Shown piece by piece: positions 14,366 through 31,022 of a stretch of 64,000 nt of DNA. Numbering within the stretch: position 1 is the stretch's first letter; each line of letters starts with the position of its first letter. The DNA lies in assembly GCA_027493375.1 (NCBI GenBank), contig JAPVWO010000087.1, positions 2,853 to 66,852 on the forward strand, written 5' to 3'. A program made the translations under genes and the position numbers. Below the pieces are notes generated by a model that searched no databases, was not told the DNA's origin, and worked only from the letters and a program-made list of their open reading frames with translations. The DNA is from Candidatus Multivorans thiocomprendens. GTDB lineage: Bacteria; Acidobacteriota; Thermoanaerobaculia; Multivoradales; Multivoraceae.

Positions 14366-14608
14366 ATGAAGACTGCGGTTTCGATCCCGGACGACATCTA
14401 CGCGCGAGCCGAGCTTCTTGCCCGTCAGGCTGGCCGATCGCGAAGCGACGTGTACGCCGCCGCCCTCGACGAGTACGTCGCGCGCCACGCACCCGACGAG
14501 ATCACGGACGAGATGAACCGGGTCTGCGACGCTCTGGGGGAGGACAAGGAGGAGGATGGCTTCCTCGCCGCCGCCGCACACCGCGCCCTCCGACGCGTCG
14601 AGTGGTGA
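14366..14608 (+). CDS. type II antitoxin, ribbon-helix-helix (CopG/MazE-like)
   Basis: 80 aa. MKTAVSIPDDIYARAELLARQAGRSRSDVYAAALDEYV is a classic RHH N-terminus. Overlaps the toxin gene by 7 nt. Confidence 0.8.
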   Translation: MKTAVSIPDDIYARAELLARQAGRSRSDVYAAALDEYVARHAPDEITDEMNRVCDALGEDKEEDGFLAAAAHRALRRVEW

Positions 14609-14949
14609 TCAGCCAGGGCGATGTCTCCTGGGCTGAACTGCCCGAGCCGACGGGATCGGGACCAGGATTCCGCCGGCCGGTAGTCGTCGTCCAAGGCGAC
14701 GCATTGAACCGAAGTCGAGTAGCGACCGTCGCCTGCGTACCGCTGACCAGCAATCTTCGCTGGGCTGACGCTCCCGGCAACGTCCGACTGACCAGGCGGC
14801 TGACGGGATTGCCAAAGGACTCGGTCGCCAACGTCTCGCAAGTGATCGCTCTCGACCGGGTGCTCCTGGAACCTGCCGTCGCTCGCATTCCGCAAGCCAA
14901 GATCGACCTCGTTCTCTCCGGGATCGATACCGTCCTCGGACGAGAGTGA
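14602..14949 (+). CDS. type II toxin, MazF/PemK family endoribonuclease
   Basis: 115 aa. GDVSWAELPEPTGSGPGFRRPVVVVQGDALN ... VACVPLTSN ... SVANVSQVIALDR matches the PemK/MazF pattern. Confidence 0.85.
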   Translation: MVISQGDVSWAELPEPTGSGPGFRRPVVVVQGDALNRSRVATVACVPLTSNLRWADAPGNVRLTRRLTGLPKDSVANVSQVIALDRVLLEPAVARIPQAKIDLVLSGIDTVLGRE

Positions 14950-15726: not shown

Positions 15727-18700
15727 GTGGCCGCCCCCACGATCTTCGAGACCTGCCAGCCCCGCGACGACATCCTCCGCGGGGCCGTGACCGATGCCGA
15801 CTTCGCCGCCGATCTCGCGTCGGTCCTGAGCGGTTCCGGCAGTCCGGCCTACGCCGACCCCGCCCGGTTCTTCGCCAACACTTATCCCACGCGCGGTCTG
15901 CGGAATCTGCTCGCGAACGTCTGCCGCCGCCTGAGCGGGGCCGGCGGCGAGGCCGCGGCGATCTTCCGGCTCGACACCTCCTACGGCGGCGGCAAGACGC
16001 ACGGCCTCATCGCGCTGGTCCATGCGGCGCAGGGCATGCACGGCGTCGCCGACGCTTCCGAGTTCCTCGACCCGTCGCTGCTGCCAGCGGGCAAGGTGCG
16101 CGTCGCGGCATTCGACGGCGAGAACGCCGACCCCGCCAACGGGCGGGCGCTCGGCGACGGCGTTCTGGCCTACACGCCGTGGGGCGAGATCGCTTACGCT
16201 CTCGCCGGCCCGCCGGGTTACGAGCGCGTACGCAAGAGCGACGAGCTGCGGGCGGCGCCCGGGGCCGGAACGCTCCAGGAGCTGTTCGGCGGCGAGCCGA
16301 CCCTCATCCTGCTCGACGAGCTCTCCGTGTATCTGCGCAAGGTCCGGCGGCTCGACGATGCACGAGACCAGTTGACCGCCTTTCTGACCTCACTGTTCAA
16401 GGCGATCGAGAACGCACCGAAAGCCGCCCTGGTCTACACGCTGGCGATCGGCAAGGCAGACGGCGGCGCGCCGGACGCTTACAGCGAGGAGAACCGCTTC
16501 ATCGCCGACCAGATGGCCGAAGCCGAAAGCGTCTCCGCCCGCAAGGCGACGCTCCTCAACCCGACCGCGGACGACGAGACGATCCAGGTGCTCCGGCGGA
16601 GGCTCTTCGAGAGCATCGATCCTGACGCGGCGGCCGACGTCGCCGGCAAGTACCGCGGGCTCTGGTCCGCTCACGCCGACTCGCTTCCGACTTCGGTCAA
16701 CCCGTCCTCCAACGCAGAGACTTTCGCCGACAGCTACCCACTGCACCCCGAAGTCCTGGAGACCCTGACCGGCAAGACGGCGACCCTCGCCACCTTCCAG
16801 CGCGTGCGCGGCATGTTGCGGTTGCTGGCGCGCACGGTCGGCCAGTTGTGGGAAGAGCACCCGGACGACGCCACGGCCATCCACCTGCACCACATCGACC
16901 CCGGACACGAGCCGATTCGCCAGGAGATACTCACCCGGTTGGGCCAGGACGCCTACGCACCCGCCATCGCCAACGACATTGCGGGCCCGGCCGGCAGGAG
17001 ATCGCTCGCCCAGGAGATCGACGCCACCAACCACGGCAGTCTGCCACCGTACGCGGAGTACGCCGCGCGGACGATCTTCATGCATACGCTGGCGTTCAAC
17101 GAACCGCTCAAGGGACTGGCGCCCGACCAACTGCGCTACTCCATGCTCGGCCCTGAGCTGGACATCAGCTTCATCGAGAAAGCGCGCAAGAACTTCGTCA
17201 CCGAGTCCGCGTACCTGGACGACCGGCCCGCCGCGCCGCTGCGCTTCCTGGCCGAGGCGAACCTGAGCCAGATCATCCGGCGCGAGGAACAGCACATTGA
17301 CAGCGCCGAGGCTCAAGCTGAATTGAACGACCGCATCCGCCGGATCTTCGACGGTCCGGTCTTCGACGCGATCACCTTTCCGGGTGGCCCCTTCGACGTG
17401 CCGGACGAAGTGGGCGACGGCTGCCCCAAGCTCGTCGTCGTCTCCTACGACGCGGTATCCGTTGGGGCAACGGTCGACGAAGTGCCCGACTTGGTGGAAC
17501 GGATCTACTCGCGGAAGGGTGCGGAGAGCCTCTCGCTACGGGCTCTTCGGAATCACCTGGTCTTCGTCGCGGCCGAGGAAGCGCGCAAGTCGAACATGCA
17601 GGATCGGAGCCGCCGGCGGCTGGCGCTGCGCGAGCTGAAGAAGCCGGAACGTTTGGCTGAGTTGGCCGAACACCAGCAGGACCAGGTGCGCGAACAGCAC
17701 CGCCGTTCCGAGCAGGAGCTCGCGGTGGCGATTCAACAGGCATACCGGCACGTCTTCTACCCGTCCCGAAACCGGCTCGGAAGCCATCTCGTTGACCTTG
17801 CGCACACGGCCATTGACATGCAGTCGTCCTCGGAGAGCCCCGGCGCCGGCCAGCGGCAGATCGTCCGCGCGCTGCGCGACCTCGGCAAGCTGCGGCTATC
17901 GGAGGATCAGCCGGACTCTCCGGCCTACGTTCGCGACCGCACGCCGCTGAAGAAGGGACAAATCTCGACCGGCGTCCTTCGCGATGAGTTCCGTCGCGAC
18001 CCTGGACTCCCCATGCTCTCGGGGAACGATGTCTTCATCCGGGGAATCCGCCGGGGCGTTGAACTCGGCGAGTACGTCTACCAGCGCGGAGATCTCCTCT
18101 ACGGTCCCGGCGACCCGGCTCCGACGATCGAGATCGACGAACAGTCGATGATCTTCACCATGGCCTATGCCAGAAACGAGTTGATCTGGCCGCGGCCGAG
18201 CAACGAAGAACTGAAGCCGGGCACGTCCAGCGAGATCCGGGACAAACCAGACGGCCCAGAGCCTTCGCCCGAATCGGGGTTCGCTGTCACGACGGTGCCC
18301 GCCGAGTTCTCCGCCGAGGGACCTTTCAGTGAGGCGCTCATCAAGCTTTGGGAGCAGGCGCGCGACCGGCAGGTCGAGGCGCTCGCAATCTTGACTATCT
18401 CGATGTTCGAGGCGCGCGACGCGTTTCCCATGGTGAACGCGGTCAACGCGGTGTCCGGAGCGACAAAGACGATCCGGTTCGAAGGCGGCTACGAGACTCG
18501 CGACGGCGGTACTCTCGAACTGGCCTTCAGGGGCCCGCCCTCCGACGCCCAACCAGTGCGCGAGTTCCTCCAGCCGCAGTTCCGGGACGCCCCCGAGTCG
18601 ACGATTGAGGCCGCGTTCCACCTGGAGTTCACAGACGGCCTGCCGCTGGACGGCGACGCGCCTGAGCAACTCGCCGGCCAACTGACCCGGTTTGCTGGGG

Positions 18701-18792
18701 GCGCCGCACACGTCTCCGCGTCCGCACAGGCCTGCCCGGCGGACCAGCCATCCAAAGACGACAGGCCTGCCGATGACGGGGACACGGCATGA
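15727..18792 (+). CDS. DUF499-type P-loop ATPase (defence-island ATPase)
   Basis: 1021 aa. N-terminus FETCQPRDDILRG..DFAADLASVL...FFANTYPTRGLRNLL...LDTSYGGGKTHGLIAL (Walker A-like GGGKTH). Walker B LILLDELSVYL. GTG start. Stop overlaps the next start (ATGA 18789-18792). Confidence 0.75.
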   Translation: MAAPTIFETCQPRDDILRGAVTDADFAADLASVLSGSGSPAYADPARFFANTYPTRGLRNLLANVCRRLSGAGGEAAAIFRLDTSYGGGKTHGLIALVHAAQGMHGVADASEFLDPSLLPAGKVRVAAFDGENADPANGRALGDGVLAYTPWGEIAYALAGPPGYERVRKSDELRAAPGAGTLQELFGGEPTLILLDELSVYLRKVRRLDDARDQLTAFLTSLFKAIENAPKAALVYTLAIGKADGGAPDAYSEENRFIADQMAEAESVSARKATLLNPTADDETIQVLRRRLFESIDPDAAADVAGKYRGLWSAHADSLPTSVNPSSNAETFADSYPLHPEVLETLTGKTATLATFQRVRGMLRLLARTVGQLWEEHPDDATAIHLHHIDPGHEPIRQEILTRLGQDAYAPAIANDIAGPAGRRSLAQEIDATNHGSLPPYAEYAARTIFMHTLAFNEPLKGLAPDQLRYSMLGPELDISFIEKARKNFVTESAYLDDRPAAPLRFLAEANLSQIIRREEQHIDSAEAQAELNDRIRRIFDGPVFDAITFPGGPFDVPDEVGDGCPKLVVVSYDAVSVGATVDEVPDLVERIYSRKGAESLSLRALRNHLVFVAAEEARKSNMQDRSRRRLALRELKKPERLAELAEHQQDQVREQHRRSEQELAVAIQQAYRHVFYPSRNRLGSHLVDLAHTAIDMQSSSESPGAGQRQIVRALRDLGKLRLSEDQPDSPAYVRDRTPLKKGQISTGVLRDEFRRDPGLPMLSGNDVFIRGIRRGVELGEYVYQRGDLLYGPGDPAPTIEIDEQSMIFTMAYARNELIWPRPSNEELKPGTSSEIRDKPDGPEPSPESGFAVTTVPAEFSAEGPFSEALIKLWEQARDRQVEALAILTISMFEARDAFPMVNAVNAVSGATKTIRFEGGYETRDGGTLELAFRGPPSDAQPVREFLQPQFRDAPESTIEAAFHLEFTDGLPLDGDAPEQLAGQLTRFAGGAAHVSASAQACPADQPSKDDRPADDGDTA

Positions 18793-19280
18793 CGGCCCAC
18801 CCGCAGCAAACGGACCAGTTCGCTTCGATCGCCCCCCGGCATTCAGCCCCCAGCTACGAGTTGCGAGTCCGCAGACTGGGCGCTGCTCTCTCCATGTACG
18901 AGGTTTGGCAACTCCCGGCGGTGTCGACGCCCCAGATCGCCGCGCCGATTCGCGTAGCCGGCCTCAAGGGCCGCAACCTGGAGTTGGTCGAACACCGCGT
19001 CCTCCGGCGACTCTCTCAAGCCGGCATCAAGCTCGCCCGGCCTGCCGCCGAGCCGATGCACGGACTCCCTCTCAGCGAAGATCTCGCCCTACACCTGGGC
19101 CTCATGTTCCGGGCTCTCGCGCCGATGCGAAGCCGCGAGCGGATGCGCGCCGTAGCGGAAGGCATTGAACGAATGGACCGAGAGGAGGCCGCGTACTGGC
19201 TCGGCATGGCGATGCACCGGCGGCGACCACGGCGAGTCCTGGCGGCGTTGCGGACGCTGTTGACGGCGCCGCCGCGGTGA
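18789..19280 (+). CDS. small protein translationally coupled to the DUF499 ATPase (position/size consistent with the DUF3780-type accessory gene)
   Basis: 163 aa with no motif I can name. The call rests only on the ATGA coupling and on my recollection that a ~180-aa DUF3780 protein follows DUF499 in such modules. Confidence 0.35.
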   Translation: MTAHPQQTDQFASIAPRHSAPSYELRVRRLGAALSMYEVWQLPAVSTPQIAAPIRVAGLKGRNLELVEHRVLRRLSQAGIKLARPAAEPMHGLPLSEDLALHLGLMFRALAPMRSRERMRAVAEGIERMDREEAAYWLGMAMHRRRPRRVLAALRTLLTAPPR

Positions 19281-19331
19281 GGTCGTTTCAGCCGAGCCGC
19301 CAGGCCTGATCGGTGCGTTAGGCTCCCACCG

Positions 19332-20576
19332 ATGTCGGACAGCGAACCGTCAGGCCCCCAACGGCACTCTGCGCCGGCCGCGTCCGCGGAGGATGCCGGA
19401 ACATCGAGCCTCGACGGACACGGCGTCGCCGAGCCGCTGCCCGACGGTCCGAACCAAGAGCCGTCCGATGAGGCGAAGGCCGCAGCTCCAGACGCTCCCG
19501 TGGGCGAGGACATTGAGGGCCTCGACGAGCACGGCGCTTCCTGGGGCGACTATCCGATCGACTCTCTCCTGATCCGACCCGAGCACCGGACCGTCCATGA
19601 CGTGGTGCGCCGCATCGATCGCGAAACCTACATCCTGAATCCGGACTTCCAGCGCGACTTCATCTGGGACGTATCCACCCAGAGCCGGTTAATCGAGTCC
19701 ATTCTGATGCGCATTCCCCTTCCCGTTCTCTACCTCGCGGAGAACGACGACGGAAAGGTGGTCGTCGTGGACGGCCTGCAACGCCTCCGCACGTTGCAAC
19801 GCTTTCTGGATGATGAGTTGAAACTGCGCCTCCCCGACAGGCCGGACTTGCACGGCAAACGGTTTTCCGACCTCTCCGAGAAGCTCCAGAACCGCGTCGA
19901 GGACTGCGGCCTGACGCTCTACTCCATCGACTCGAAGGTGCCGGAACGCGCCCGGCTCGACATCTTCGAGCGCGTCAACAGCGGCGTTCCGCTGACGCGG
20001 CAGCAGATGCGGAACTGCCTTTACATGGGACCGGCGACCCAATTCCTCGCGAAGGAAGCCGGCACGGACCTGTTCAGGAACGCGACGGGGGGGAGTCTCA
20101 AGCAGAAGACGATGCGGGATCGGGAGTTCGTGAACCGCTTCTGCGCGTTCCACCTCTTGTCCCTCAAGGACTACGACGGAGACATGGACCGCTTCCTTGC
20201 AAGGGCGCTCGGCCGCATGAATCGAGCCAACGACGCGACGCTCCATGACGTCCGAGAGGCCTTCCACCGAACATTGACAAACAACCACATGTTGTTCCAG
20301 AAACAGGCCTTCCGGAAGCACGAGCCCGACCAGAACCGGAGAGGGGTCATCAACGCATCGCTGTGGGACGTGATGTCGACCGGTCTGGCCCCCTACGACG
20401 CGATGCGCGTGCTGGAACGAGCCGAGGCCTTCAGGGCCGCCTTCTTCGCACTGCTCCAGGACGAGAAGTTCAACGAAGCGATCACGTACGGCCCGAACGA
20501 CGCTAGGAAGGTCCGCCGCCGGTTCAGGATGGCCGGCCGGATGTTTCGGGAGACCCTGGGTGCTGACGCGGATTGA
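19332..20576 (+). CDS. DUF262 (ParB/GmrSD-N-terminal-like) domain protein without a DUF1524/HNH nuclease domain
   Basis: 414 aa. FQRDFIWDVSTQSRLIESILMRIPLPVLYL ... VVVVDGLQRLRTLQRF (DGQQR-type motif) ... FERVNSGVPLTRQQMRN. Acidic, low-complexity N-terminal ~70 aa. Confidence 0.8.
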   Translation: MSDSEPSGPQRHSAPAASAEDAGTSSLDGHGVAEPLPDGPNQEPSDEAKAAAPDAPVGEDIEGLDEHGASWGDYPIDSLLIRPEHRTVHDVVRRIDRETYILNPDFQRDFIWDVSTQSRLIESILMRIPLPVLYLAENDDGKVVVVDGLQRLRTLQRFLDDELKLRLPDRPDLHGKRFSDLSEKLQNRVEDCGLTLYSIDSKVPERARLDIFERVNSGVPLTRQQMRNCLYMGPATQFLAKEAGTDLFRNATGGSLKQKTMRDREFVNRFCAFHLLSLKDYDGDMDRFLARALGRMNRANDATLHDVREAFHRTLTNNHMLFQKQAFRKHEPDQNRRGVINASLWDVMSTGLAPYDAMRVLERAEAFRAAFFALLQDEKFNEAITYGPNDARKVRRRFRMAGRMFRETLGADAD

Positions 20577-21744
20577 ACTCCGGCACTTCAAGTGCTTCGA
20601 GTTGCTCAAGTTGCCCTTGGCGCCCCTGACGCTGCTCGCGGGGGCCAACGCGTCCGGCAAGAGCACGGTCCTGCAGGCGATCGGCCTCCTGCATCAGACG
20701 GTGAAGGACTCGCCGTTCGCAAACCGGCTGCTCCTCAACGGATCGGTGCTGCGGCTGGGAAGCGCGGTCGATGTGATCGATCAGGTGCATGGCCGACGCT
20801 CCTGCTCGATCACCCTGATCGACTCCATCCTCGGACCTGCCGGCGAGCGGCCGAACGACTCGGCCGCCTCGGGCGAGGAAAGGGAGCTTCTTCACTCCTG
20901 GACCTTCGCGGGCGAGCCAGCGGACCGCTCCTTGAGGCTGACGGCCATGCACTATGAGGACGACGTCGCCAGCGACACGCTCGAAGGCGAGGGCCTGATT
21001 CCACCCGAGATGATGGGCACTCTGCCGACTCGGCTGGAAGAGCTGACCTATCTCACGGCCGAGCGTCTGGGGCCTCGCGACTTCTATCCGCTCCGGGACT
21101 CGGAGGAGGACTCGGCAGTCGGTCCCGCCGGTGAGAACGCGGCCGCGATCCTGGAAGCGCGCCGAAGCGGCGAAGTGCTGCCGGATCTCGTCCTGGAGAA
21201 CGCGCCCCCCACTTGCCTGCTCCAGGCTCAAGCGCGCATGGCGTCGTTCTTTCCCGGCTGCGTACTCGACGTGCGGCAGGTTCCGGGGACGGGCGTCGTG
21301 ACGCTTCGCATCCGGACCTCGGACGACACCGATTTCCATCGCCCCGTGCACACGGGCTTCGGGTTGACCCAGGTGCTGCCCATGGTCGTAGCCGCTCTCT
21401 CCGCCGAGTACGACGCTCTGCTCCTGTTCGAGAACCCCGAGGTTCACCTCCATCCAGCGGGACAGGCCCGGATGGGCGTCTTCCTGGCCGAGGTCGCCGC
21501 AGCTGGCGTGCAAGTGCTCGTCGAAAGCCACAGCGACCATGTGCTGAACGGCATCCGCCGCGCCGTGAAAGCCGGAATCTTGGAACCGAACGATGCCGCG
21601 CTCCACTTCTTCTCGCCACGTTCCGCCGACGCCTCGCAAGTTCAGACACCTGCGATGGATGCTGACGGAAGGTTGGATTTCTGGCCTGACGGCTTCTTCG
21701 ACCAGTTCGACAAGGACCTGAGCGCCCTCGCGGGCTGGGATTGA
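20560..21744 (+). CDS. AAA/ABC-like ATPase with C-terminal DUF3696 motif
   Basis: 394 aa. IELRHFKCF...LLAGANASGKSTVLQAIG (Walker A), YLTAERLGPR, GFGLTQVLPMV, LLLFENPEVHLHPAGQ (Walker B), LVESHSDHVL, C-terminal FWPDGFFDQF. GTG start overlaps the DUF262 gene by 17 nt. Confidence 0.8.
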   Translation: MLTRIELRHFKCFELLKLPLAPLTLLAGANASGKSTVLQAIGLLHQTVKDSPFANRLLLNGSVLRLGSAVDVIDQVHGRRSCSITLIDSILGPAGERPNDSAASGEERELLHSWTFAGEPADRSLRLTAMHYEDDVASDTLEGEGLIPPEMMGTLPTRLEELTYLTAERLGPRDFYPLRDSEEDSAVGPAGENAAAILEARRSGEVLPDLVLENAPPTCLLQAQARMASFFPGCVLDVRQVPGTGVVTLRIRTSDDTDFHRPVHTGFGLTQVLPMVVAALSAEYDALLLFENPEVHLHPAGQARMGVFLAEVAAAGVQVLVESHSDHVLNGIRRAVKAGILEPNDAALHFFSPRSADASQVQTPAMDADGRLDFWPDGFFDQFDKDLSALAGWD

Positions 21745-22706
21745 CGCACGTGCATATCCTAGCCAACGAGCTCTCGGTTCACGGGCAGTTTCCAGACGAT
21801 CTCTCCTTTTGGAACGCCATCGGTCGGCTGATGCAAATGCGGGAGGTCGCACAGCGCCACGGTCACGAGATCTACTGCTCGCGCAGCTTTCGGCATGTCC
21901 AGCCGCGCCCTGGTGTGCGTCTCGAACCAGCTCTCGCTCGTCTGCAACGAGACAGGCGAAGCCTCTTTCTCTCTTGGCTGAATCGTGGTGGCCCCTTCTG
22001 GGACGATACCGGTCGCCACGATCCAGGCGACTGGCTGGAGTGTCCGGAGTGGCCCGAGAAGGTGGTCACCGACACGTCCGTCGGTGAAGCAGCGTTCCGC
22101 GCCCTGAGCGGGTTCAGCTGCGCACTGGTCAGCCTCAGGCCGTCGGACTGGGACTACACGCCGGTTCGCGTCTTTCGCCGGCGCGGGGACCAAGAACTGC
22201 CAGCTGAACATACGGAACTGCCGAACTGGAGGGATCCCGACTCTCTCAAGGAAGGCCTTCGGGACGCGGAACCCCACGTCCAATCGTGGACGGACCTCCG
22301 GCGCGAGACTCGCCGCTTCCCGAACCTGCGCTTCGCGCCCGACTGCCTGGATCCTCTCCGCGGCCTTCCGTTCAGCGAGGGCGCCGCCGACGAGATCCTA
22401 AGGCGGCTCGACGTTCTGAACCGCTTCGCTGGCCTCCACGGCGAGACTGACGCTCCTGCTCCCGAAAGACGCAGGCTTCATCAGAAGTACTTCCGTGGCA
22501 GGAAGGCGTGGTTCTCCGACTCCTCCGACGAAGAGAAGGCCGCGTTCCGTGCCAAGATGACTTTCCATCACCCGGACAGGTCCAGCGGACACCTGTTCTG
22601 CCCCTGGCACGGCAAGGTCAAGATCCAACAGCTCCGCATTCACTTCTCCTGGCCTGAACCGCCAATCTACGTCGTGTACATCGGCCAGAAGATCACCCGC
22701 CGGTGA
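21741..22706 (+). CDS. orphan hypothetical protein, third gene of the DUF262/DUF3696 module
   Basis: 321-aa ORF. TTG start overlaps the upstream stop (TTGA); a GTG at 21750 is an alternative. No recognisable catalytic motif. His/Cys clusters HGHEIYCSRSFRH and HLFCPWHGK. Confidence 0.6.
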   Translation: MTHVHILANELSVHGQFPDDLSFWNAIGRLMQMREVAQRHGHEIYCSRSFRHVQPRPGVRLEPALARLQRDRRSLFLSWLNRGGPFWDDTGRHDPGDWLECPEWPEKVVTDTSVGEAAFRALSGFSCALVSLRPSDWDYTPVRVFRRRGDQELPAEHTELPNWRDPDSLKEGLRDAEPHVQSWTDLRRETRRFPNLRFAPDCLDPLRGLPFSEGAADEILRRLDVLNRFAGLHGETDAPAPERRRLHQKYFRGRKAWFSDSSDEEKAAFRAKMTFHHPDRSSGHLFCPWHGKVKIQQLRIHFSWPEPPIYVVYIGQKITRR

Positions 22707-22718
22707 GGTATTCTAACC

Positions 22719-24032
22719 GTGAAACTGGCATCCGTCGAGATCGAGAACTACCGGGCCATAGAGGGTCTGGAACTGGAGCCGGACCCGGCGCTGACCGTGC
22801 TGTTCGGCACGAACGCGTGTGGCAAGACGAGCGTCCTGAGCGGGATTGCGACCGGGCTGGGCGCCATCCAGAGCTTCTTCTTTCCCAGGAAGGGGATCAA
22901 CTTCCTCAAGACCGACAGGAGGGCGAACGGAGAGCCCGTTCGCATCCGGCTGACGCCGACGGGCGGCCTCTCCTGGTTGCGGGAAGAAACCGGACGGGGG
23001 TTCGCGAAGATCACCGAGAACAAGATGACACCCTGGTACGAGTTGCGAAGGTGGCTAGCCGACATCAGAAGCAGACACGAGAAGGGCGAAGTCGTCGACC
23101 TGCCGATCATCGCGTTCTACGACACGGACCGGGTCGTTTTCGACGCGCCGCGGAGGCGGCGTGGTTTCGCCGAAGAGTTCGACCGGTTCGGCGCGCTCGA
23201 GGGCGCCCTCTCGGCGCGTACGGACTTCCGGCAGTTCTTCCGGTGGTTCTACGCGATGGAGAACGCGGAGTTCCGGGCATCGAGACGCCTAAGAGAGAGA
23301 GGACGAGATTCAGGCGCCGGCACCCGCGCCGTCGTCCCGGAACTGCATGCCGTCCGTTCCGCGATAGAGGCCATGGTCAAAGGCGTCACCTCTCCGAGAA
23401 TCGAAGAGAACCCGTTGCGGTTCGTCGTGTCGCGGGAGAACGAATCCACCGACCTCGAAGAACTAGCTTTGGATCAACTGAGCGGCGGTTACCGAGCCGT
23501 TCTCACGCTCGCGGCCGATTTGGCGCGACGCATGGCCCAAGGCAATCCGCATCTGGAGGATCCGCTGAAGTCCGAGGCCGTAGTCCTGATCGACGAGATC
23601 GAACTGCATCTCCATCCCGAATGGCAGCAGCGGATCCTGGGCGACCTGCGCCGGACGTTCCCCAACGCGCAGTTCATCGTCTCCACCCACAGTCCCCAGG
23701 TGCTAACCACGGTGGAGCCTAAGCACATTCTGGAGTTGGTCGACGATGACGGGAGTATCGTGGCGAGAGCCCCGGCGTCGAGCACGTTCGGCGTGGAGGC
23801 CGGAGACGTCCTAAGCACCGTAATGGGCGTCGACGAACGCCCGGACAACTGGTACACAACGGCGCTCAACGCGTACCGCCGCCTAGTGAGCAGCGACCAG
23901 GGCGAGTCGGAGGAAGCGCAGGCGTTGCGGACGAAATTAGAGGACGCCTCGCCCGACGACCCGGCGCTTCACAGGGCCGATCTGGAAGTCCGCCAGCGCC
24001 GGATGTTCCGGCGGATGTCCGAATCGAAGTGA
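22719..24032 (+). CDS. PtuA-like ABC/SMC-type ATPase (Septu-like system)
   Basis: 437 aa. VEIENYRAIEGLEL...VLFGTNACGKTSVL (Walker A), LSGGYRAVLTLAADL (signature), VVLIDEIELHLHPEWQQ (Walker B), FIVSTHSPQVL. GTG start with GGTGAGG ~11 nt upstream. Confidence 0.65.
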   Translation: MKLASVEIENYRAIEGLELEPDPALTVLFGTNACGKTSVLSGIATGLGAIQSFFFPRKGINFLKTDRRANGEPVRIRLTPTGGLSWLREETGRGFAKITENKMTPWYELRRWLADIRSRHEKGEVVDLPIIAFYDTDRVVFDAPRRRRGFAEEFDRFGALEGALSARTDFRQFFRWFYAMENAEFRASRRLRERGRDSGAGTRAVVPELHAVRSAIEAMVKGVTSPRIEENPLRFVVSRENESTDLEELALDQLSGGYRAVLTLAADLARRMAQGNPHLEDPLKSEAVVLIDEIELHLHPEWQQRILGDLRRTFPNAQFIVSTHSPQVLTTVEPKHILELVDDDGSIVARAPASSTFGVEAGDVLSTVMGVDERPDNWYTTALNAYRRLVSSDQGESEEAQALRTKLEDASPDDPALHRADLEVRQRRMFRRMSESK

Positions 24033-24793
24033 AGCCCATCCGAGAAGTGACCCCGCCGCCGCAAGGGCTGGCGGACTACCTGGACTTGGTGGGAAACCAG
24101 AAGTACTGGGACGAGTTTCGGTCCCACGATTCCGGCAACGCGCTTGACGAACTCCGGGAGACGTTGACTCTCAATCAGCACGGACTCTGCGCCTATTGTG
24201 AGTCGACACTCGGGCCAAACCGACGCCAACTCGAGCACGTCGTGCCCCGCAGCGAGCCGTCACACGGCGAGGCCTTGGAACTCGATGTCTCGAACATGGT
24301 GGCCTGCTGCCTCCGCGTCGGCCGCGCCGCACCGACACCGGCCGAGCGGAGCGATACTGACGCGGGGCTAAACCAGGGAGGAGGCGGAGAGAGTTGCGGT
24401 CAAGCCAAGGCCGACGTGTGGTGGAACTCCTTCCTGGACCCGCGAAGCCTGCCGCCGGCGCCGAGCCTGCTAGCCGTGCACGCCGACGGGAGCATCGAAG
24501 TCGACGAGCGCGCCTGCAAGGATGCAGGCTTCAGGCCAGAGGACGCGCGCTGCTCTATCAAGACACTGAATCTCAACGCGAGGCGCCTCCGTCACGCGCG
24601 GCACTCGCAGTGGAACAACCTTGTGGACCTCTCCGCAAACGTGACGGATGAAACGAGCATGGACACCTGGATCCGGACCGTGCTGACACCGGACGAGCGT
24701 GGACAGCTTCAGCCTTTCTTCACCACGTCCCGCTCCTTCTTCGGACGAACCGGCGAACTCGTTCTCGCCGAGCGGCCTCAGAACTGGATCTGA
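24029..24793 (+). CDS. PtuB-like HNH endonuclease (TIGR02646-type)
   Basis: 254 aa. HGLCAYCES...RQLEHVVPRS...NMVACC...CGQAK is an HNH/Cys4 arrangement. GTGA overlap with the upstream ATPase. Confidence 0.65.
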   Translation: MKPIREVTPPPQGLADYLDLVGNQKYWDEFRSHDSGNALDELRETLTLNQHGLCAYCESTLGPNRRQLEHVVPRSEPSHGEALELDVSNMVACCLRVGRAAPTPAERSDTDAGLNQGGGGESCGQAKADVWWNSFLDPRSLPPAPSLLAVHADGSIEVDERACKDAGFRPEDARCSIKTLNLNARRLRHARHSQWNNLVDLSANVTDETSMDTWIRTVLTPDERGQLQPFFTTSRSFFGRTGELVLAERPQNWI

Positions 24794-24796
24794 ACG

Positions 24797-27700
24797 ATGA
24801 CCGACGCCCGCCTCATCGAACGCTGGCTGCCGATCGCCGAACTGGGCGAGGAGTCCGCCCGCGAGCGCAGGTCGATGACCGCACTGCCGCCTACCTACTA
24901 CCTGCACGTCTGGTGGGCGCGGAGGCCGCTGGTTGCGTCTCGCGCCGCCGTGCTGGCTTCCCTGCTGCCGGCGAACGCTGACCGGGAACAGTTCCTACAC
25001 GCTGTCGGGATACACGGCGATCCTGTGGCCTCGCGACGTCGAATCGACGCTGCCCGACGGAAGGGCGAACGGTTCAAGGGCGAGGCTTACAGCTACGCCC
25101 GGGCCTTCACGTACTCGCCTCAGTCGGAAGAGCGGGAGCGCCTCGAAGGAGCCTTCGGGGCGCGTGCCGGCGTTTTCACTTGCCTCGACCCGACCGCCGG
25201 CGGCGGCAGCATTCCCTTCGAAGCGGCTCGGCTGGGCGTTCAAGCAATCGCAAACGACCTCAACCCCGTCGCCGCCTTCATCATGCAGGCCACGGTCGAC
25301 TGGCCGGTCAGGCACGGCACCGCGGTGCTCGAAGAGTTCCAGAGGTTGGCGGCCGATTTCGTCGAGCGTAGAGAGGCAGCCCTTCACGCTTGCTACCCGC
25401 CCGAGCCACAAGACAGAGCAGTCAGCACGAACTACCTCTGGGCCCGAACCGTCTCCTGCCCCTACTGCGACGGCCTCGTGCCGCTATCGCCGAACTGGCG
25501 GCTCGCGCCTGGAACCGGCGTGCGGCTGCGACCCGAAGTCACCGGCGGCCCCGGAACCGCAGGACGAGTCTGTTCGTTCGAGATCGTGGAGTCCGCGGAC
25601 GAACAGTCCACCGGGACGGTTGCGCGTGGCGACGGAACCTGCCCGTTCCCCGACTGCGGCCGGGTGATCGACGGAGACGAGATCAAGGAGCAGGCTCAGG
25701 ACGGTCGCATGGGCGAACAGCTCTATGCCGTCGTCTTCAAGCGGCGGGTCGAGACGCGGACGAAGACGGGAAGGATCCGCGAGAAGTGGGTGCGCGGCTA
25801 CCGTGCACCGCGGCCCGAGGACGACAACTCGGCGGAGATCGCGGGCCGTCTGGCCGAGAAGATGCCGGTGTGGGAGGCGTTCGACATCGTGCCGAACGAA
25901 CGATTCCCGGAGGATGGAAACGACACCCGACCGATCCAGTACGGCATGCCACTCTGGCGCGACCTATTCTCGCCCCGGCAACTGCTCTGCCATGGCACCA
26001 GCGTCGAGGTCTTCCGCGAGATGTTCGACGCGGACCAAGCGGCAAGTCCGGTTGGCGACGTTCGGAAGGCGGCCTACGGATACTTGGCCCTTTCGTTGGA
26101 CAAGCTATTGAACTACAGCGCACGAATGACGCGGTGGCACGCGAGCCGCGAGGTCCTCGCAGGCACGTTCGACCGACACGACTTTTCCTTCAAGTGGTCG
26201 TACGCCGAGATGGCACCGCTGATCACCGGACTCGGCTACGACTGGGCGATCAAACAAACCGCCAAGTGCATCGGGGAACTCGTCCGGCTCGTCCACGGCG
26301 ACACCGCTGCCGTGAACGGCACCGGACCCGCCAACCAACTCCGGCTTGCCGGCCCGAACGATGGAACGACGGTCCCAAGCGGGCCGGGCGACCTCCTCGC
26401 GTCGATTCAGCGAGAGCCCTGGGCCGGAGCCCCGGAATCGCCCCCTGTAGCGATCACCTGCAAACCAGCCGAGAGCCTCGACCACATCGAGGACGCCTCT
26501 ATCGACGTCGTCGTCATGGACCCGCCCTACTACGACAACGTGATGTACGCCGAACTGGCCGATTTCTTCTACGTCTGGCTCAGGCGCACCGCGGGGCACG
26601 TCTTCCCGGAGCTCTTCCGGCACCGCCTGACGGACAAGGAGAACGAGGCCATCGCCAACCCGGCCAGGTTCAAGGGGAAGAAAGGCGCACGGGCGCTGGC
26701 GGGGCGCGACTACCAGGAGCGCATGGCAGCTATCTTCCGGGAGTGCGCCAGGGTGCTCAAGCCGGACGGCATCATGACCCTGATGTTCACCCACAAGGCG
26801 ACCGGCGCCTGGGACGCGCTGACGACGGGACTCATGGAAGCGGGCTTCCAGATCACGGCCTCCTGGCCGATCAACACGGAGGCGGCGGGCAGCCTGCACA
26901 TCAAGGACAAGGCTGCCGCCAAGAGCACGATCTTCCTCGTTTGCCGGCCGCCCGATGATCCCGGCGCGGCCGAACTCCGGGACAGCGGAACGTACTGGGA
27001 AGACGTGGAGCCGGAAGTCGCCAAGGCGGTCCGCGACCGCGTCGGCGAGTTTCAGGACGCCGGCATCGGCGGCGTGGACCTGTACCTCGCCTGCTTCGGC
27101 CCGGCGCTCCAGCGGTTCTCGGAACACTGGCCGCTGCGGCGCGGCACGCCCCGGGAACTGCCGGCCAGCGCTCGGCGAAGAGGTCATCAGGCGACCTTGC
27201 AGCTCGAAGAGCAGGACCCTTACGCCGTCACGCCGGAGGACGCGCTCGACGTCGCACGCCGGGAAGTGAAGCGCTGGAGGCTGGAGCAACTGACCCACCT
27301 CAAGGCCAATGTGGACCTCGACCCGGCGACCGCCTTCTTCGTGCTGGCCTGGGACGCCTTCAAGGCGCCCGGTTTCTCCTACGACGAGGCGCTGCGCTTG
27401 GCCCGCGCCACGGGCGTCGACCTGGACCGCGACATCGTCGGACGGCTCGCGCTCAAGAAGAGCGGCAACCTTCAACTCTGGGACAGCGAGCGCCGGGCCG
27501 CCCGGGGCGCCCTCGGACCGGCCGACGGTTCCCGCGGGATGATCGACGCCCTCCATCACGCGGCGCACATGGCGCGCAACAGGTCGCTGGAGGAGGCCCG
27601 CGACCTGCTCGCGCGCGCCGAGGTCGACGAGGATCCGCTCTTCCTGGCCGCCTTCGAGGCCGTGCTCGAGGTGCTCCCGGTGTCCTCGACCTTCACCGGC

Positions 27701-27832
27701 GTCGCCCTCAAGGGTGAGATCGCCGCCTTCAGCAACGACTTCGAGGCTCTCTACAACCTCCGGCGCTTCGCCTTCGCCGACCAGATCGATGAGCCGGAAC
27801 AGCTCGCGATCTGGCGCCGAGACGCGACGTGA
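24797..27832 (+). CDS. DUF1156-domain N6-adenine DNA methyltransferase
   Basis: 1011 aa. N-terminal DUF1156 signature ERWLPIAELGEESARERR...YYLHVWWARRPLVASRA. AdoMet motif CLDPTAGGGSIPFEA. Zn-ribbon insert CPYCDG...CPFPDCG. Catalytic motif IV VVMDPPYYDNVMY. Confidence 0.85.
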   Translation: MTDARLIERWLPIAELGEESARERRSMTALPPTYYLHVWWARRPLVASRAAVLASLLPANADREQFLHAVGIHGDPVASRRRIDAARRKGERFKGEAYSYARAFTYSPQSEERERLEGAFGARAGVFTCLDPTAGGGSIPFEAARLGVQAIANDLNPVAAFIMQATVDWPVRHGTAVLEEFQRLAADFVERREAALHACYPPEPQDRAVSTNYLWARTVSCPYCDGLVPLSPNWRLAPGTGVRLRPEVTGGPGTAGRVCSFEIVESADEQSTGTVARGDGTCPFPDCGRVIDGDEIKEQAQDGRMGEQLYAVVFKRRVETRTKTGRIREKWVRGYRAPRPEDDNSAEIAGRLAEKMPVWEAFDIVPNERFPEDGNDTRPIQYGMPLWRDLFSPRQLLCHGTSVEVFREMFDADQAASPVGDVRKAAYGYLALSLDKLLNYSARMTRWHASREVLAGTFDRHDFSFKWSYAEMAPLITGLGYDWAIKQTAKCIGELVRLVHGDTAAVNGTGPANQLRLAGPNDGTTVPSGPGDLLASIQREPWAGAPESPPVAITCKPAESLDHIEDASIDVVVMDPPYYDNVMYAELADFFYVWLRRTAGHVFPELFRHRLTDKENEAIANPARFKGKKGARALAGRDYQERMAAIFRECARVLKPDGIMTLMFTHKATGAWDALTTGLMEAGFQITASWPINTEAAGSLHIKDKAAAKSTIFLVCRPPDDPGAAELRDSGTYWEDVEPEVAKAVRDRVGEFQDAGIGGVDLYLACFGPALQRFSEHWPLRRGTPRELPASARRRGHQATLQLEEQDPYAVTPEDALDVARREVKRWRLEQLTHLKANVDLDPATAFFVLAWDAFKAPGFSYDEALRLARATGVDLDRDIVGRLALKKSGNLQLWDSERRAARGALGPADGSRGMIDALHHAAHMARNRSLEEARDLLARAEVDEDPLFLAAFEAVLEVLPVSSTFTGVALKGEIAAFSNDFEALYNLRRFAFADQIDEPEQLAIWRRDAT

Positions 27833-27836
27833 TGCG

Positions 27837-30800
27837 ATGCTCTCGGACCACTACTGGCGTCTGAAGTACACGCCGGACGACGGCGACCTGGTGCGGATCT
27901 TCTATCTCCCGGCACTCGAGGACGCGGAGAGCTACGACCGGCTGACTGGTTACTTCAAGGCCGGCGCGCTGACCCTGGCGGCGCGAGGAATCGAGGGGCT
28001 GGTCCGCAACGCAGGCCGCATGAGGCTGCTGGTGGGCTGCACCCTGGACCCGCCCGAGATCGAAGCGATCGAACGAGGCGAGAACCTTCGGGACGCCGTA
28101 GAGCAACACTTGGGCGCCATCCCGCTCGAACCCGCGGACCAGGAATCGACCGACGCCCTGGAACTGCTGGCCTGGATGGTCGCAGGCGGCCACCTCGAAG
28201 TGAAGGTCGCCGTGCCCTGCGACGCGAACCGGCGGCCCATTTTCGCCGAGGGCATCTTCCACGAGAAGTCGGGCGTGATCGAAGACCGGGTCGGCGACCG
28301 GATCGCCTGGACCGGCAGCCTCAACGAGACCGCGGCGGGCTGGCGCCAGAACTGGGAGAGCATCAGCGTCTTCAAGAGCTGGGGTGAAGGATCGGAGCCC
28401 GAGCGGGTGACCCGCGAACAGACGAACTTCGATCGCCTGTGGGCCGACGAGTCGCCCCATGTCGTCGTGCTCGACGCGCCGGAGGCAGCGCGCCGGGATC
28501 TGCTGCGCTTCATGCCGGAGAGTGACAAGCCGGCCCGACTGAAGAGGGGTGAGCTGGCCGCGACGCCGGACGAGCCGCCAGCTCCCGTCACCGGACCGCC
28601 CGCCCCACCACCCAAGGCCGAGCCGGACCTGAGGAGCCGCGTGTGGTCCTTCATCCAACAGGCACCTTCTCTGCCGGGTGGCGGCCGGCGGGTCGGCGAA
28701 GCCACCGCGGCAGTGACCCCCTGGCCGCACCAGGTCCGGGCCTTCGAGCGACTCTACGCCGAATGGCCGCCGCGGTTGCTGATCGCCGACGAGGTCGGCT
28801 TGGGCAAGACGATCCAGGCCGGCATGCTGCTGCGGCAAGCCTGGCTCGCAGGGCGCGCGAAGCGCATCCTCGTGCTGGCGCCCAAGGCGGTGTGTCGGCA
28901 GTGGCAGATCGAATTGCGTGAGAAGTTCAACCTGAACTGGCCGATCTACGATGGTAGACGGTTGGTGCGCTACCCCTCACCGGCGCTCCAGGGCGCAAAC
29001 GAACGCGATGTCGGCCGAGACGACTGGCACAAGGCGCCCGCCGTCATGGTGTCGAGCCATCTCTTGCGCCGGAGCGATCGCGCCCGGAGCCTGCTCGATC
29101 AGGCCGAGTCGTGGGACCTGATCGTCGTCGACGAGGCCCACCACGCCCGCCGGCGGGAACTCGGCGGCAGCCGCCGCGCGCAGAGGCCGAACGCCATGCT
29201 GGGGTTGCTTCAGGCCATCTCGCAGAGAACCCAAGGGCTGGTTCTGTTGACCGCGACGCCGATGCAAGTTCATCCGGTCGAGGTCTGGGATCTGCTGGCC
29301 CTCCTCGGCCTGCCGCCCGAATGGACGCAGGAGCGGTTCCTGAAGTTCTTCGAGGACATCGAAGAGCCGAACCCCTCGCACGAGGCACTGGACCGGATCG
29401 CGGAAATGTTCCGAGCGACCGAGGCGCGCTACGGAACAACCGGAAAGGCAGTGGCCGAGGGCGCGACCGGCCTTCGCTCACTCGGCGCCGGCAAAGTGCT
29501 GAGGGCGCTGAGGAGCCCCTCCTCCATCGCCCGCCGGCGGCTGCAGGCACCGGAACGGAGGGCCGCCATCGCCGTCGCGCGGGCCAACACGCCGATTCGC
29601 CACCTCGTGTCGCGCCATACGCGCAGGCTGCTACGCGGATACCGCGAACGCGGCATGGTGGACGCGTCGGTCGCGGACCGGAACGTCGAGGATCGCATGG
29701 TGACGATGAGCACCGAGGAACGACGAGTCTACGAAGCGGTCGGAACCTACATCTCCAGCACCTACAACAAGGCCGAAGCCCGCGAGCGCAACGCGGTCGG
29801 ATTCGTGATGACCACCTACCGGCGGCGGCTGGCCAGCAGCTTCCAGGCGCTTCGCAACACGCTCCGGGATCGGCTGGAAGCCTTCGCAGACCCTGAGCGC
29901 GAACGTAATACCGACCTCGACGAGGACGCCTTCGAGGACGAGATCCGGGCCGAGAACTGGGACGCCGAGGACTTGGCCGAGGAGGAACGCGCCGCCCTGG
30001 AGGCGGAAGAGCAGACCATGATCGCCGAGCTTCTCGACCGGGCCCAACGACTGCCACCCGACAGCAAGCTGGCGGCACTCAAGGACGAACTCAACCGCCT
30101 GCGCGACGAGGGCTACGGGCAGGTCATGGTGTTCACCCAGTACACCGACACGATGGACTTCCTGCGGGAAGCGCTCGCCGACGCCAAGCTCATGTGCTAT
30201 TCGGGCCGCGGCGGCGAAGCGCCAACCGCCGACGGCGGCTGGCGCAAGATCGACCGCGACGAAGTCAAGCGGCGCTTCCGCGAGGGCGACGCGGACATCC
30301 TGCTATGCACCGACGCAGCCTCGGAGGGCCTCAACTTCCAGTTCTGCGGCGCTCTCGTGAACTACGACATGCCGTGGAATCCGATGCGGGTAGAACAGCG
30401 GATAGGCCGCATCGACCGCCTGGGCCAGCGGAGTCCCACAATCCAGATCGTCAACCTCCACTACGAAGACACGGTCGAGACCGACGTGTATCAGGCGCTG
30501 CGCGATCGCATCGGCCTGTTCGAGGCCGTCGTCGGCCGGCTGCAACCGATCCTGGCGGAGTTGCCGCGTTCGATCACTGCGGAAGTTCTCGCCGACCGGG
30601 CCTCCTCGGCCTCCCTCGCCCATCGCCTCGAGGGGCAAATCGTCGAAGCCCAAGCCGGCGGCTTCGACCTCGACGAAGTGCTCGAAGAAGATCTGGAGAT
30701 GCCCGTCCTGCCAGAGTCGCCCCTCACGATGGCCGACCTCGACCGCGTCATCTCACGGCCCGACCTGATGCCGTCTGGAGTGGAGATTCGCCCGATGGGC

Positions 30801-31022
30801 GCTCGCGAGTACAGCCTACTGGCTCCCGGAATGAAGGAGGCGCTTCGAGTCACGACGGACCAGGAGTACTACGAAGAGCACTCGGAGAGCCTTGAGCTCT
30901 GGTCGCCGGGAAACCCGCTGTTCGAACCTCCGGAGCGGGCAGTGCCCGACACTTCGCATCAAGGGGACCGTGACCAAGCAAAGGCGCCGCGGACCCTTCG
31001 CGACCTGCTCAGCACGCGATAG
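27837..31022 (+). CDS. PLD-nuclease / SNF2-family helicase fusion
   Basis: In-frame ATG at 27837, 4 nt after the MTase stop. PLD HxK(x)4D motif FHEKSGVIED with GSLNET. SNF2 motifs LIADEVGLGKTIQAG (I), LIVVDEAHHARR (II), VLLTATPMQ (III), LLCTDAASEGLNFQ (V), WNPMRVEQRIGRIDRLGQ (VI). Confidence 0.85.
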   Translation: MLSDHYWRLKYTPDDGDLVRIFYLPALEDAESYDRLTGYFKAGALTLAARGIEGLVRNAGRMRLLVGCTLDPPEIEAIERGENLRDAVEQHLGAIPLEPADQESTDALELLAWMVAGGHLEVKVAVPCDANRRPIFAEGIFHEKSGVIEDRVGDRIAWTGSLNETAAGWRQNWESISVFKSWGEGSEPERVTREQTNFDRLWADESPHVVVLDAPEAARRDLLRFMPESDKPARLKRGELAATPDEPPAPVTGPPAPPPKAEPDLRSRVWSFIQQAPSLPGGGRRVGEATAAVTPWPHQVRAFERLYAEWPPRLLIADEVGLGKTIQAGMLLRQAWLAGRAKRILVLAPKAVCRQWQIELREKFNLNWPIYDGRRLVRYPSPALQGANERDVGRDDWHKAPAVMVSSHLLRRSDRARSLLDQAESWDLIVVDEAHHARRRELGGSRRAQRPNAMLGLLQAISQRTQGLVLLTATPMQVHPVEVWDLLALLGLPPEWTQERFLKFFEDIEEPNPSHEALDRIAEMFRATEARYGTTGKAVAEGATGLRSLGAGKVLRALRSPSSIARRRLQAPERRAAIAVARANTPIRHLVSRHTRRLLRGYRERGMVDASVADRNVEDRMVTMSTEERRVYEAVGTYISSTYNKAEARERNAVGFVMTTYRRRLASSFQALRNTLRDRLEAFADPERERNTDLDEDAFEDEIRAENWDAEDLAEEERAALEAEEQTMIAELLDRAQRLPPDSKLAALKDELNRLRDEGYGQVMVFTQYTDTMDFLREALADAKLMCYSGRGGEAPTADGGWRKIDRDEVKRRFREGDADILLCTDAASEGLNFQFCGALVNYDMPWNPMRVEQRIGRIDRLGQRSPTIQIVNLHYEDTVETDVYQALRDRIGLFEAVVGRLQPILAELPRSITAEVLADRASSASLAHRLEGQIVEAQAGGFDLDEVLEEDLEMPVLPESPLTMADLDRVISRPDLMPSGVEIRPMGAREYSLLAPGMKEALRVTTDQEYYEEHSESLELWSPGNPLFEPPERAVPDTSHQGDRDQAKAPRTLRDLLSTR

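What the first reader, a model, noticed from the sequence alone, without database searches (positions are those of the whole stretch)
21741..22706. 321-aa orphan protein with His/Cys clusters and a RelE/ParE-like-looking C-terminal tail: possible effector
SEEN: there is no P-loop, HNH, PD-(D/E)xK, PLD or TIR/Sir2 motif that I can find. There are two His/Cys clusters: HGHEIYCSRSFRH near the N-terminus and HLFCPWHGK near the C-terminus. The last ~60 residues are KMTFHHPD..GHLFCPWHGKVKIQQLRIHFSWPEPPIYVVYIGQKITRR. They show short alternating beta-strand-like segments ending in I-Y-V-V-Y-I-G-x-K. INFERENCE (weak, by eye): this tail resembles the C-terminal strands of RelE/ParE-superfamily toxins. 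If so, the protein could be the toxic effector of the triad. The start codon is ambiguous (TTG 21741 or GTG 21750).
Basis: inference. Interest (0 to 1): 0.6.

Follow-up and report, generated by a model that had tools for sequence, protein, structure and literature searches.

The report
Menshen defence effector NsnC, RelE-like tail

Summary
The ORF is real (21741 or, more likely, 21750 to 22706, + strand), and the quoted motifs are there. It is not an orphan. It matches the PADLOC NsnC model over its full length (E 1.2e-96) and has more than 800 homologues. In 82 of 83 fetched loci it follows NsnA (DUF262) and NsnB (ABC ATPase with DUF3696).

An AlphaFold2 model of the last 132 residues (pLDDT 92) retrieves almost only RelE/ParE/YafQ/YoeB/HigB toxins from the PDB: at least 43 of the top 50 hits. 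Target TM-scores reach 0.57 and probability 0.85, but no single hit is significant (best E 0.07). No sequence or profile similarity to ParE/RelE families is detectable.

H290, K292, R299, H301, Y313 and K317 are 97-100% conserved in 196 homologues. They fit the H-R-H triad published for the Menshen PB-BECR1 RNase domain (Li et al., NAR 2025). The N-terminal His cluster is not conserved (about 10%), so a metal site is unlikely.

The cassette sits with a Septu pair inside an Hma (DUF499/DUF1156/helicase) system, which is also a published pattern.

Verdict: the by-eye inference was essentially right, but the family, fold and effector role are already described. RNase activity remains untested. 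Low novelty.

The parts
21750..22706 (+). nsnC coding sequence. The likely start is GTG 21750 (318 aa). The alternative start TTG 21741 gives 321 aa; residue numbers in this report count from 21741.
   Evidence: PADLOC NsnC PDLC03896 E 1.2e-96, full length. 845 homologues. Homologue N-termini align with V4.
21750..22307 (+). NsnC N-terminal alpha/beta domain (residues about 4-189). In the literature this is the 'inactive PIN-like' (inPIN) domain, predicted to dock on the NsnB DUF3696 domain.
   Evidence: The AF2 model has alternating strands and helices, pLDDT about 90. Three other NsnC HMMs match only this part (PDLC03889, 03891, 03886). PIN similarity was not recovered by Foldseek.
22308..22703 (+). 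NsnC C-terminal RelE/YafQ-like (BECR-fold) domain, residues 190-321. This is the putative RNase effector module.
   Evidence: Domain model pLDDT 91.9, pTM 0.87. At least 43 of the top 50 PDB hits are RelE/ParE/YafQ/YoeB/HigB toxins, TMt up to 0.57. PDLC03887 matches only this half.
22599..22643 (+). Motif C287-P-W-H290-G-K292 ... R299-x-H301 on the beta2-beta3 hairpin. This is the candidate H-R-H catalytic triad plus a lysine.
   Evidence: H290 and H301 are 100% conserved; K292, R299 and C287 are >=97% conserved in 196 homologues. Strands at 289-293 and 298-302. Coordinates checked.
22677..22691 (+). Y313-x-G315-x-K317 on the last strand: conserved C-terminal residues of the putative active site.
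   Evidence: >=97% conserved. Invariant in A1 and A2.
20560..21744 (+). nsnB: ABC ATPase with a C-terminal DUF3696, the predicted transducer that holds NsnC.
   Evidence: PADLOC NsnB PDLC03878 E 5.4e-98. Pfam AAA_15, AAA_21 and DUF3696. Immediately upstream of NsnC in all 83 loci.
19332..20576 (+). nsnA: ParB/DUF262 (GmrSD_N) protein, the predicted sensor.
   Evidence: PADLOC NsnA PDLC03877 E 6.5e-112. Pfam GmrSD_N. Present in 82 of 83 loci.
22719..24793 (+). Septu pair ptuA (22719-24032) and ptuB (24029-24793). A neighbouring, separate defence module.
   Evidence: PADLOC PtuA E 1.8e-110 and PtuB E 4.7e-49. NCBIfam PtuA, PtuB and TIGR02646.
15727..19280 (+). Left arm of the Hma system: hmaC (DUF499 ATPase, 15727-18792) and a DUF7680 gene (18789-19280).
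   Evidence: PADLOC HmaC E 1.1e-95. Pfam DUF499 and DUF7680.
24797..31022 (+). Right arm of the Hma system: hmaB (DUF1156 methylase, 24797-27832) and hmaA (PLD-SNF2 helicase, 27837-31022).
   Evidence: PADLOC HmaB E 1.6e-72. PLD_Helicase, HmaA and BrxH models E 1e-62 to 1e-78. Start checked.

Best explanation
The gene encodes NsnC, the third protein of a Type I Menshen (NsnA-NsnB-NsnC) anti-phage cassette.

It has two domains. The N-terminal alpha/beta domain (about residues 4-189) is the module that, according to published AlphaFold3 models, docks between the DUF3696 tails of an NsnB ABC-ATPase dimer. The C-terminal domain (about 190-321) has the RelE/YafQ-type BECR fold. It carries an invariant basic/His patch on its sheet: H290 and K292 on one strand, R299 and H301 on the paired strand, and Y313 and K317 on the last strand.

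The most likely mechanism is as follows. NsnA (ParB/DUF262 plus a DNA-binding domain) senses phage DNA. NsnB couples this to ATP binding or hydrolysis. NsnC is then released or switched on, and its BECR domain cuts RNA without a metal, using His/Arg/Lys general acid-base chemistry as in YafQ and RelE. This stops translation of phage and/or host.

Shown here: family membership, conserved gene order, two-domain architecture, a RelE-like fold of the model, and invariance of the candidate catalytic residues. Inferred: RNase activity, its RNA target, control by NsnB, and sensing by NsnA.

My estimates: that this is NsnC of Menshen, about 0.95; that the C-domain is a true BECR/RelE-fold domain, about 0.85; that it acts as an RNase effector, about 0.65.
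For: Family membership:
- PADLOC NsnC, NsnB and NsnA match with E 1.2e-96, 5.4e-98 and 6.5e-112, each over the full length.
- The gene order NsnA-NsnB-NsnC is kept in 82 of 83 loci from more than 10 phyla, down to 41% NsnC identity.

Fold:
- The full-length model has pLDDT 89 and the C-domain model 91.9. Helices are followed by an antiparallel sheet.
- In the Foldseek PDB search with the C-domain, at least 43 of the top 50 hits are RelE/ParE/YafQ/YoeB/HigB toxins. The best probability is 0.85 (3oei_C). TMt is 0.53-0.57 for RelE, YafQ and YoeB.
- The same toxin families head the whole-protein search.

Conserved residues:
- H290 and H301 are 100% conserved; K292, R299, Y313, G315 and K317 are >=97% conserved in 196 homologues.
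- The same residues are kept in P0262, where the domain is attached to an unrelated N-terminal part.

Literature:
- The same paper predicts an NsnB4-NsnC2 complex via DUF3696.

The NsnB here shows the published hallmarks read directly from its sequence: GANASGKST, LLLFEN and GFGLTQ.
Against: No Foldseek hit is individually significant: the best E is 0.069, none is <=0.001, and rmsd is 6-8 A.

There is no sequence-level link to RelE/ParE. Pfam finds nothing at E<=10. A PDB profile search finds nothing. hhalign against 22 ParE_toxin (PF05016) members gives probability below 2%.

The fold evidence rests on predicted structures, not solved ones.

I could not inspect model coordinates. That the invariant residues lie on one face is inferred from strand pairing.

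No RNase activity has been shown for any PB-BECR1 NsnC. Published Menshen biochemistry (bioRxiv 10.1101/2025.07.10.664194) concerns a Toprim-type variant.

The PIN-like nature of the N-domain was not recovered here.
Confidence: 0.8

Rival explanations
1. The C-terminal domain is a ParE-type toxin module that poisons DNA gyrase or binds another protein target, rather than an RNase.
For: The lowest-E Foldseek hits are ParE proteins (6x0a, 8c26). ParE and RelE share the same fold.
Against: ParE hits have lower TM-scores (0.32-0.46) and probabilities than the RelE, YafQ and YoeB hits (0.53-0.57, probability up to 0.85). The invariant His/Lys/Arg/His/Tyr/Lys set on the sheet resembles RelE and YafQ catalytic sets. 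The published assignment is RNase (PMC12065111).
Confidence: 0.07
2. NsnC is a non-catalytic nucleic-acid-binding adaptor or regulator, and killing or restriction is carried out by NsnA (DUF262 NTPase or nickase-like) or by neighbouring systems.
For: No enzymatic activity has been shown for this NsnC type. The basic patch could simply bind RNA or DNA. DUF262 proteins are active parts of GmrSD, BrxU and SspE systems.
Against: Two histidines plus Arg are absolutely conserved across 41-97% identity and across a domain swap, which is typical of catalysis. In other Menshen variants the same position is filled by bona fide nuclease domains such as Toprim, PLD and other BECR families (PMC12065111). 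NsnA here lacks a DUF1524/HNH nuclease half.
Confidence: 0.1
3. The His/Cys clusters form metal (zinc) sites, making the protein a metal-dependent nuclease or zinc-finger protein.
For: His and Cys are locally dense in this one sequence. C46 and C287 are conserved at 94-97%.
Against: H40, H42, H52 and H284 are kept in only 3-12% of homologues. No set of four conserved ligands lies together. C287 is Ala in P0262, which keeps all the other motif residues. RelE-type BECR RNases are metal-independent (established knowledge).
Confidence: 0.03

Closest known systems
NsnC of the Menshen system (Millman et al. 2022; Li, Tan, Basu, Corbett, Zhang, NAR 2025, PMC12065111), inPIN + PB-BECR1 type
   Same: Full-length HMM match. 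Third gene after DUF262 NsnA and DUF3696 NsnB. Two-domain layout. RelE/YafQ-like C-domain with a conserved His-Arg-His set. Type I layout: NsnA has only a low-complexity leader before DUF262.
   Different: The host is an uncultured Acidobacteriota-like MAG lineage; the closest named relatives are 'Candidatus Multivorans'. Which numbered inPIN family it belongs to could not be determined because the paper's supplements are not held. Direct comparison with the S. silvestris archetype was not possible.
Type II toxin-antitoxin RNases RelE, YafQ and YoeB (BECR fold)
   Same: Fold of the C-domain model (TMt 0.53-0.57). Basic/His residues on strands beta2, beta3 and beta4, as with RelE K52/K54/R61/R81/Y87 and YafQ H50/H63/H87 (recalled from memory).
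   Different: No detectable sequence or profile similarity. About 40 extra residues are inserted. The domain is fused behind a 190-aa domain. There is no small antitoxin gene; control is presumably by the NsnB ATPase.
Septu (PtuAB), PARIS (AriAB) and Gabija: ABC-ATPase plus nuclease defence systems
   Same: An ABC ATPase of the AAA_15/AAA_21 type is paired with a toxic nuclease effector that it holds in check. NsnB hits AriA, GajA and PtuA models.
   Different: Menshen adds a ParB/DUF262 sensor protein. It uses a RelE-like rather than an HNH or Toprim effector.
Hma system with embedded defence cassettes (Payne et al., bioRxiv 10.1101/2024.01.29.577857)
   Same: HmaC and DUF7680, then the embedded cassettes, then HmaB and HmaA, all on one strand. 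Septu embedded in Hma is the published archetype.
   Different: Here two cassettes (Menshen and Septu, five genes) are embedded together. The published screen allowed at most three genes between hma genes.

Membership tests
Menshen NsnC | Significant full-length match to an NsnC profile | tested here: met
   PADLOC PDLC03896 E 1.2e-96, residues 6-321 against profile 3-319 of 319. Seven further NsnC models match at E 3e-14 to 2e-3.
Menshen NsnC | Encoded directly downstream of NsnA (ParB/DUF262) and NsnB (ABC ATPase + DUF3696) | tested here: met
   Window genes 19332-20576 and 20560-21744. The same order is found in 82 of 83 homologous loci.
Menshen NsnC | N-terminal PIN-like (inPIN) Rossmann-type domain lacking the PIN acidic tetrad | tested here: inconclusive
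   The AF2 model shows an alpha/beta domain. Foldseek gave no PIN hit, only weak flavodoxin- or Rossmann-like fragments.
Menshen NsnC | C-terminal effector (nuclease-type) domain | tested here: met
   RelE/YafQ-like fold with invariant H, K, R, H, Y and K.
Menshen NsnC | Confers phage resistance together with NsnA and NsnB | not testable with these tools
   Needs a plaque assay in a laboratory host.
BECR / RelE-ParE fold superfamily | [quoted passage not shown] | tested here: met
   Helices at 213-231 and 241-250, then strands at 284-293, 298-302 and 309-316. At least 43 of the top 50 PDB hits are superfamily members, TMt up to 0.57 and probability up to 0.85, but the best E is only 0.069.
BECR / RelE-ParE fold superfamily | Conserved catalytic residues on the sheet face (H-R-H in PB-BECR1) | tested here: met
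   H290 100%, R299 >=97% and H301 100% conserved, plus K292, Y313 and K317. Placement on the same face is inferred from hairpin pairing, not from coordinates.
BECR / RelE-ParE fold superfamily | RNA cleavage activity | not testable with these tools
   Needs biochemistry.
Pfam ParE_toxin / RelE family (PF05016) and type II TA toxins | Sequence or profile similarity to the family | tested here: not met
   No Pfam hit at E<=10. hhalign against 22 PF05016 members from related genomes gives probability below 2%. No PDB sequence hit.
Pfam ParE_toxin / RelE family (PF05016) and type II TA toxins | Small stand-alone toxin with an adjacent antitoxin gene | tested here: not met
   The domain is the C-terminal third of a 318-aa protein. 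The neighbours are NsnB and PtuA, with no antitoxin-sized ORF. 512 cluster representatives carry the domain, nearly all about 315-325 aa with the domain at the C-end.

The most novel reading that the evidence does not exclude
In this large NsnC subfamily the N-terminal domain may not be a mere 'dead PIN' docking module. It may carry its own functional pocket.

N9, S12, Q16, H93, T110, E116, S131, S135 and N162 are >=97% conserved, and most of them lie at the C-terminal ends of the parallel strands, where Rossmann- and PIN-type active or ligand sites lie. That pocket could bind a nucleotide signal or a specific RNA, or even be catalytic. NsnC activation or target choice would then be decided in the N-domain.

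Separately, the tight nesting of Menshen and Septu inside Hma could reflect functional coupling rather than mere co-location.
Probability: 0.12. Interest if true: 0.5.

Novelty: already known. Interest (0 to 1): 0.2.

Why it matters
It settles the annotation of an unnamed gene. The DUF262 / DUF3696 ATPase / 'orphan' triad is a Menshen system, and the orphan is its RelE-like effector.

It also gives concrete residues (H290, K292, R299, H301, Y313, K317) for the first biochemical test of the most common Menshen effector type. The RNase activity of that type is so far only predicted.

Beyond that, it is one more example of defence cassettes nested in an Hma system. This one comes from a poorly studied group of uncultured bacteria.

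Tried and rejected
- Sequence searches of the whole protein and of each half found nothing outside PADLOC. Libraries tried: Pfam (E<=10), NCBIfam, PHROGs and PDB sequences.
- Profile-profile comparison (hhalign) of the C-domain, its 72-residue core and the N-domain against an alignment of 22 ParE_toxin members from related genomes gave probability below 2%. The RelE link therefore exists only at fold level.
- Foldseek of the full model against viral structures (BFVD) gave nothing significant. The best plausible hit is a phage 'cytotoxic translational repressor' at probability 0.54.
- The metal-site idea was rejected on conservation and on the Cys-to-Ala change in P0262.
- A PIN assignment for the N-domain could not be reproduced with Foldseek.
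- The supplements of PMC12065111 are not held, and the 2026 BECR-classification preprint that mentions Menshen could not be opened. The exact inPIN and PB-BECR family numbers therefore remain unassigned.
- The long proteins carrying the C-domain (420-621 aa) have no Pfam domains. One is an N-terminally extended NsnC and one has an unrelated N-part.

Full report
**Observation.** The TTG at 21741 overlaps the stop of the upstream gene (aTTGAcgcacGTG). Gene-called homologues, including one that is 97% identical (P0002, 318 aa), begin at a Met that aligns with V4. GTG 21750 is therefore the more likely start, but this is not settled. Residue numbers below count from 21741.

**Not an orphan.** Pfam, NCBIfam and PHROGs have no model for the protein. 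PADLOC-DB does: NsnC model PDLC03896 matches residues 6-321 with E 1.2e-96.
- The two upstream genes match NsnA (PDLC03877, E 6.5e-112; Pfam GmrSD_N/DUF262) and NsnB (PDLC03878, E 5.4e-98; Pfam AAA_15, AAA_21 and DUF3696). The triad is therefore the Menshen anti-phage system.
- A search of 5.8 billion proteins gave 845 homologues. A scan of one genome per species gave 342 loci. These come from Acidobacteriota, Binatia, Latescibacterota, Alpha- and Gammaproteobacteria, Thermodesulfobacteriota, Nitrospirales, Chloroflexota, Cyanobacteria and others.
- In all 83 fetched loci NsnB lies directly upstream of NsnC. In 82 of them NsnA lies upstream of that; the exception is cut by a contig end.
- Within the window's own genus 8 of 24 other genomes carry the gene, and none of 16 genomes from other genera of the order do. 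This is the patchy pattern expected of an accessory defence gene.

**Structure.** An AlphaFold2 model built on 71 sequences is confident (mean pLDDT 89) and shows two domains.
- Residues about 4-189 alternate strands and helices.
- Residues about 190-321 have two long helices followed by an antiparallel sheet (strands 284-293, 298-302 and 309-316).
- A Foldseek search of the PDB with the whole model put ParE, RelE, PrpT, YafQ and YoeB toxins at the top, but with E of 0.7-4.
- I then modelled the C-domain alone, using 73 sequences cut from the window and the fetched loci (A2). That model has pLDDT 91.9 and pTM 0.87.
- With it, at least 43 of the 50 best PDB matches are RelE/ParE-superfamily toxins (ParE, RelE, RelK, YafQ, HP0894, YoeB, HigB, PrpT, PfiT).
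- Target-normalised TM-scores are 0.53-0.57 for RelE, YafQ and YoeB, and Foldseek probability reaches 0.85.
- No single hit passes E 0.001 (best 0.069), and rmsd values are 6-8 A, partly because the domain carries about 40 inserted residues.
- The fold assignment therefore rests on how consistently one superfamily is retrieved, and on a predicted structure.

**No sequence-level link.**
- Pfam finds nothing in either half at E<=10.
- A profile of the C-domain finds no PDB sequence.
- hhalign against 22 ParE_toxin (PF05016) proteins taken from related genomes gives probability below 2%.

The domain works like a RelE-type module and shares its fold. It is not a member of the Pfam RelE/ParE sequence families, and it is not a type II toxin: there is no antitoxin gene and it is always fused. 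A profile search of 1.84 billion cluster representatives found 512 carriers. Nearly all are 313-331 aa with the domain at the C-terminus.

**Conserved residues.** I examined 196 unique homologues of 41-97% identity.
- H290 and H301 are invariant.
- K292, R299, Y313, G315, K317 and C287 are at least 97% conserved.
- H290 and K292 sit on one strand and R299 and H301 on the paired strand of a hairpin. By the alternation rule, all four should face the same side of the sheet. This is an inference, because I could not open the coordinates.
- The pattern mirrors the strand-borne catalytic sets of RelE and YafQ.
- The N-terminal 'cluster' is not conserved: H40, H42 and H52 are kept in 9-12% of sequences, and H284 in 3%.
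- P0262 (621 aa) carries the same C-domain behind an unrelated N-terminal region. It has Ala in place of C287 but keeps H, K, R, H, Y and K.
- This argues against a metal site. It also shows that the C-domain moves as a module. The PADLOC hits point the same way: three NsnC models match only the N-domain and one matches only the C-half.

**Literature.** Li et al. (NAR 2025, PMC12065111) analysed Menshen computationally.
- They conclude that NsnA is the sensor, NsnB the transducer and NsnC the effector.
- They describe NsnC as an inactive-PIN-like N-domain plus a variable C-terminal effector.
- AlphaFold3 models predict an NsnB tetramer whose DUF3696 tails clamp the NsnC N-domain.

H290, R299 and H301 are the only invariant His-Arg-His set here, so they fit that description. 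The NsnB in the window shows the published peculiarities: Walker B 'FEN' and a GxG signature, read. No paper I could find shows RNase activity for this NsnC type. A preprint that handled Menshen biochemically used a Toprim-type variant.

**Context.** The Menshen cassette and a Septu pair (PtuA E 1.8e-110, PtuB E 4.7e-49) lie between HmaC plus DUF7680 on one side and HmaB plus HmaA on the other. Embedding of Septu and other systems inside Hma is published (bioRxiv 10.1101/2024.01.29.577857). Among the 83 loci, about 25-27 show Menshen next to or inside Hma genes, and 7 also have PtuA.

**Verdict.**
- The gene is a member of an already described family with an already published functional prediction.
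- What remains open is experimental: whether the domain cleaves RNA, which RNA, and how NsnB controls it.
- Novelty is low. The residual interest lies in the precise mutational targets and in the strongly conserved pocket-like residues of the N-domain.

Noticed in passing
L005, L007, L008 (same-genus loci) compared with window 15727-31022: In close relatives with the same Hma-Menshen-Septu layout, the Hma scaffold genes are 87-95% identical to the window (HmaC, HmaA). The embedded genes and the methylase are far more diverged: NsnA 77-80%, NsnB 73-76%, NsnC 68-74%, PtuA 65-71%, PtuB 44-73% and HmaB 60-78%. This suggests cassette exchange or faster evolution inside a conserved scaffold.
   Followed up: partly
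window 21750-22307 (NsnC N-domain): The supposedly inactive PIN-like domain has many residues that are >=97% conserved: N9, S12, Q16, F17, W79, G84, P85, W87, H93, V109, T110, G115, E116, S131, P134, S135, W137 and N162. Several lie at the C-terminal ends of the predicted parallel strands. Foldseek found no PIN match.
   Followed up: partly
P0262 (621 aa, from the representative search): The NsnC C-domain (H/K/R/H/Y/K kept, Cys replaced by Ala) is attached to an unrelated 455-residue N-terminal region with no Pfam domain. Its genomic context was not examined.
   Followed up: partly
window 14366-14949: An RHH antitoxin / MazF-like toxin pair sits just left of the Hma system, judged from the sequences. 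It has no PADLOC hit.
   Followed up: no
G000 and relatives, whole genomes: The genome is rich in ParE/RelE-type toxins: 8 PF05016 matches in G000, and 37 of the 41 genomes searched (G000 and 40 relatives) have at least one. None of them is related in sequence to the NsnC C-domain.
   Followed up: yes
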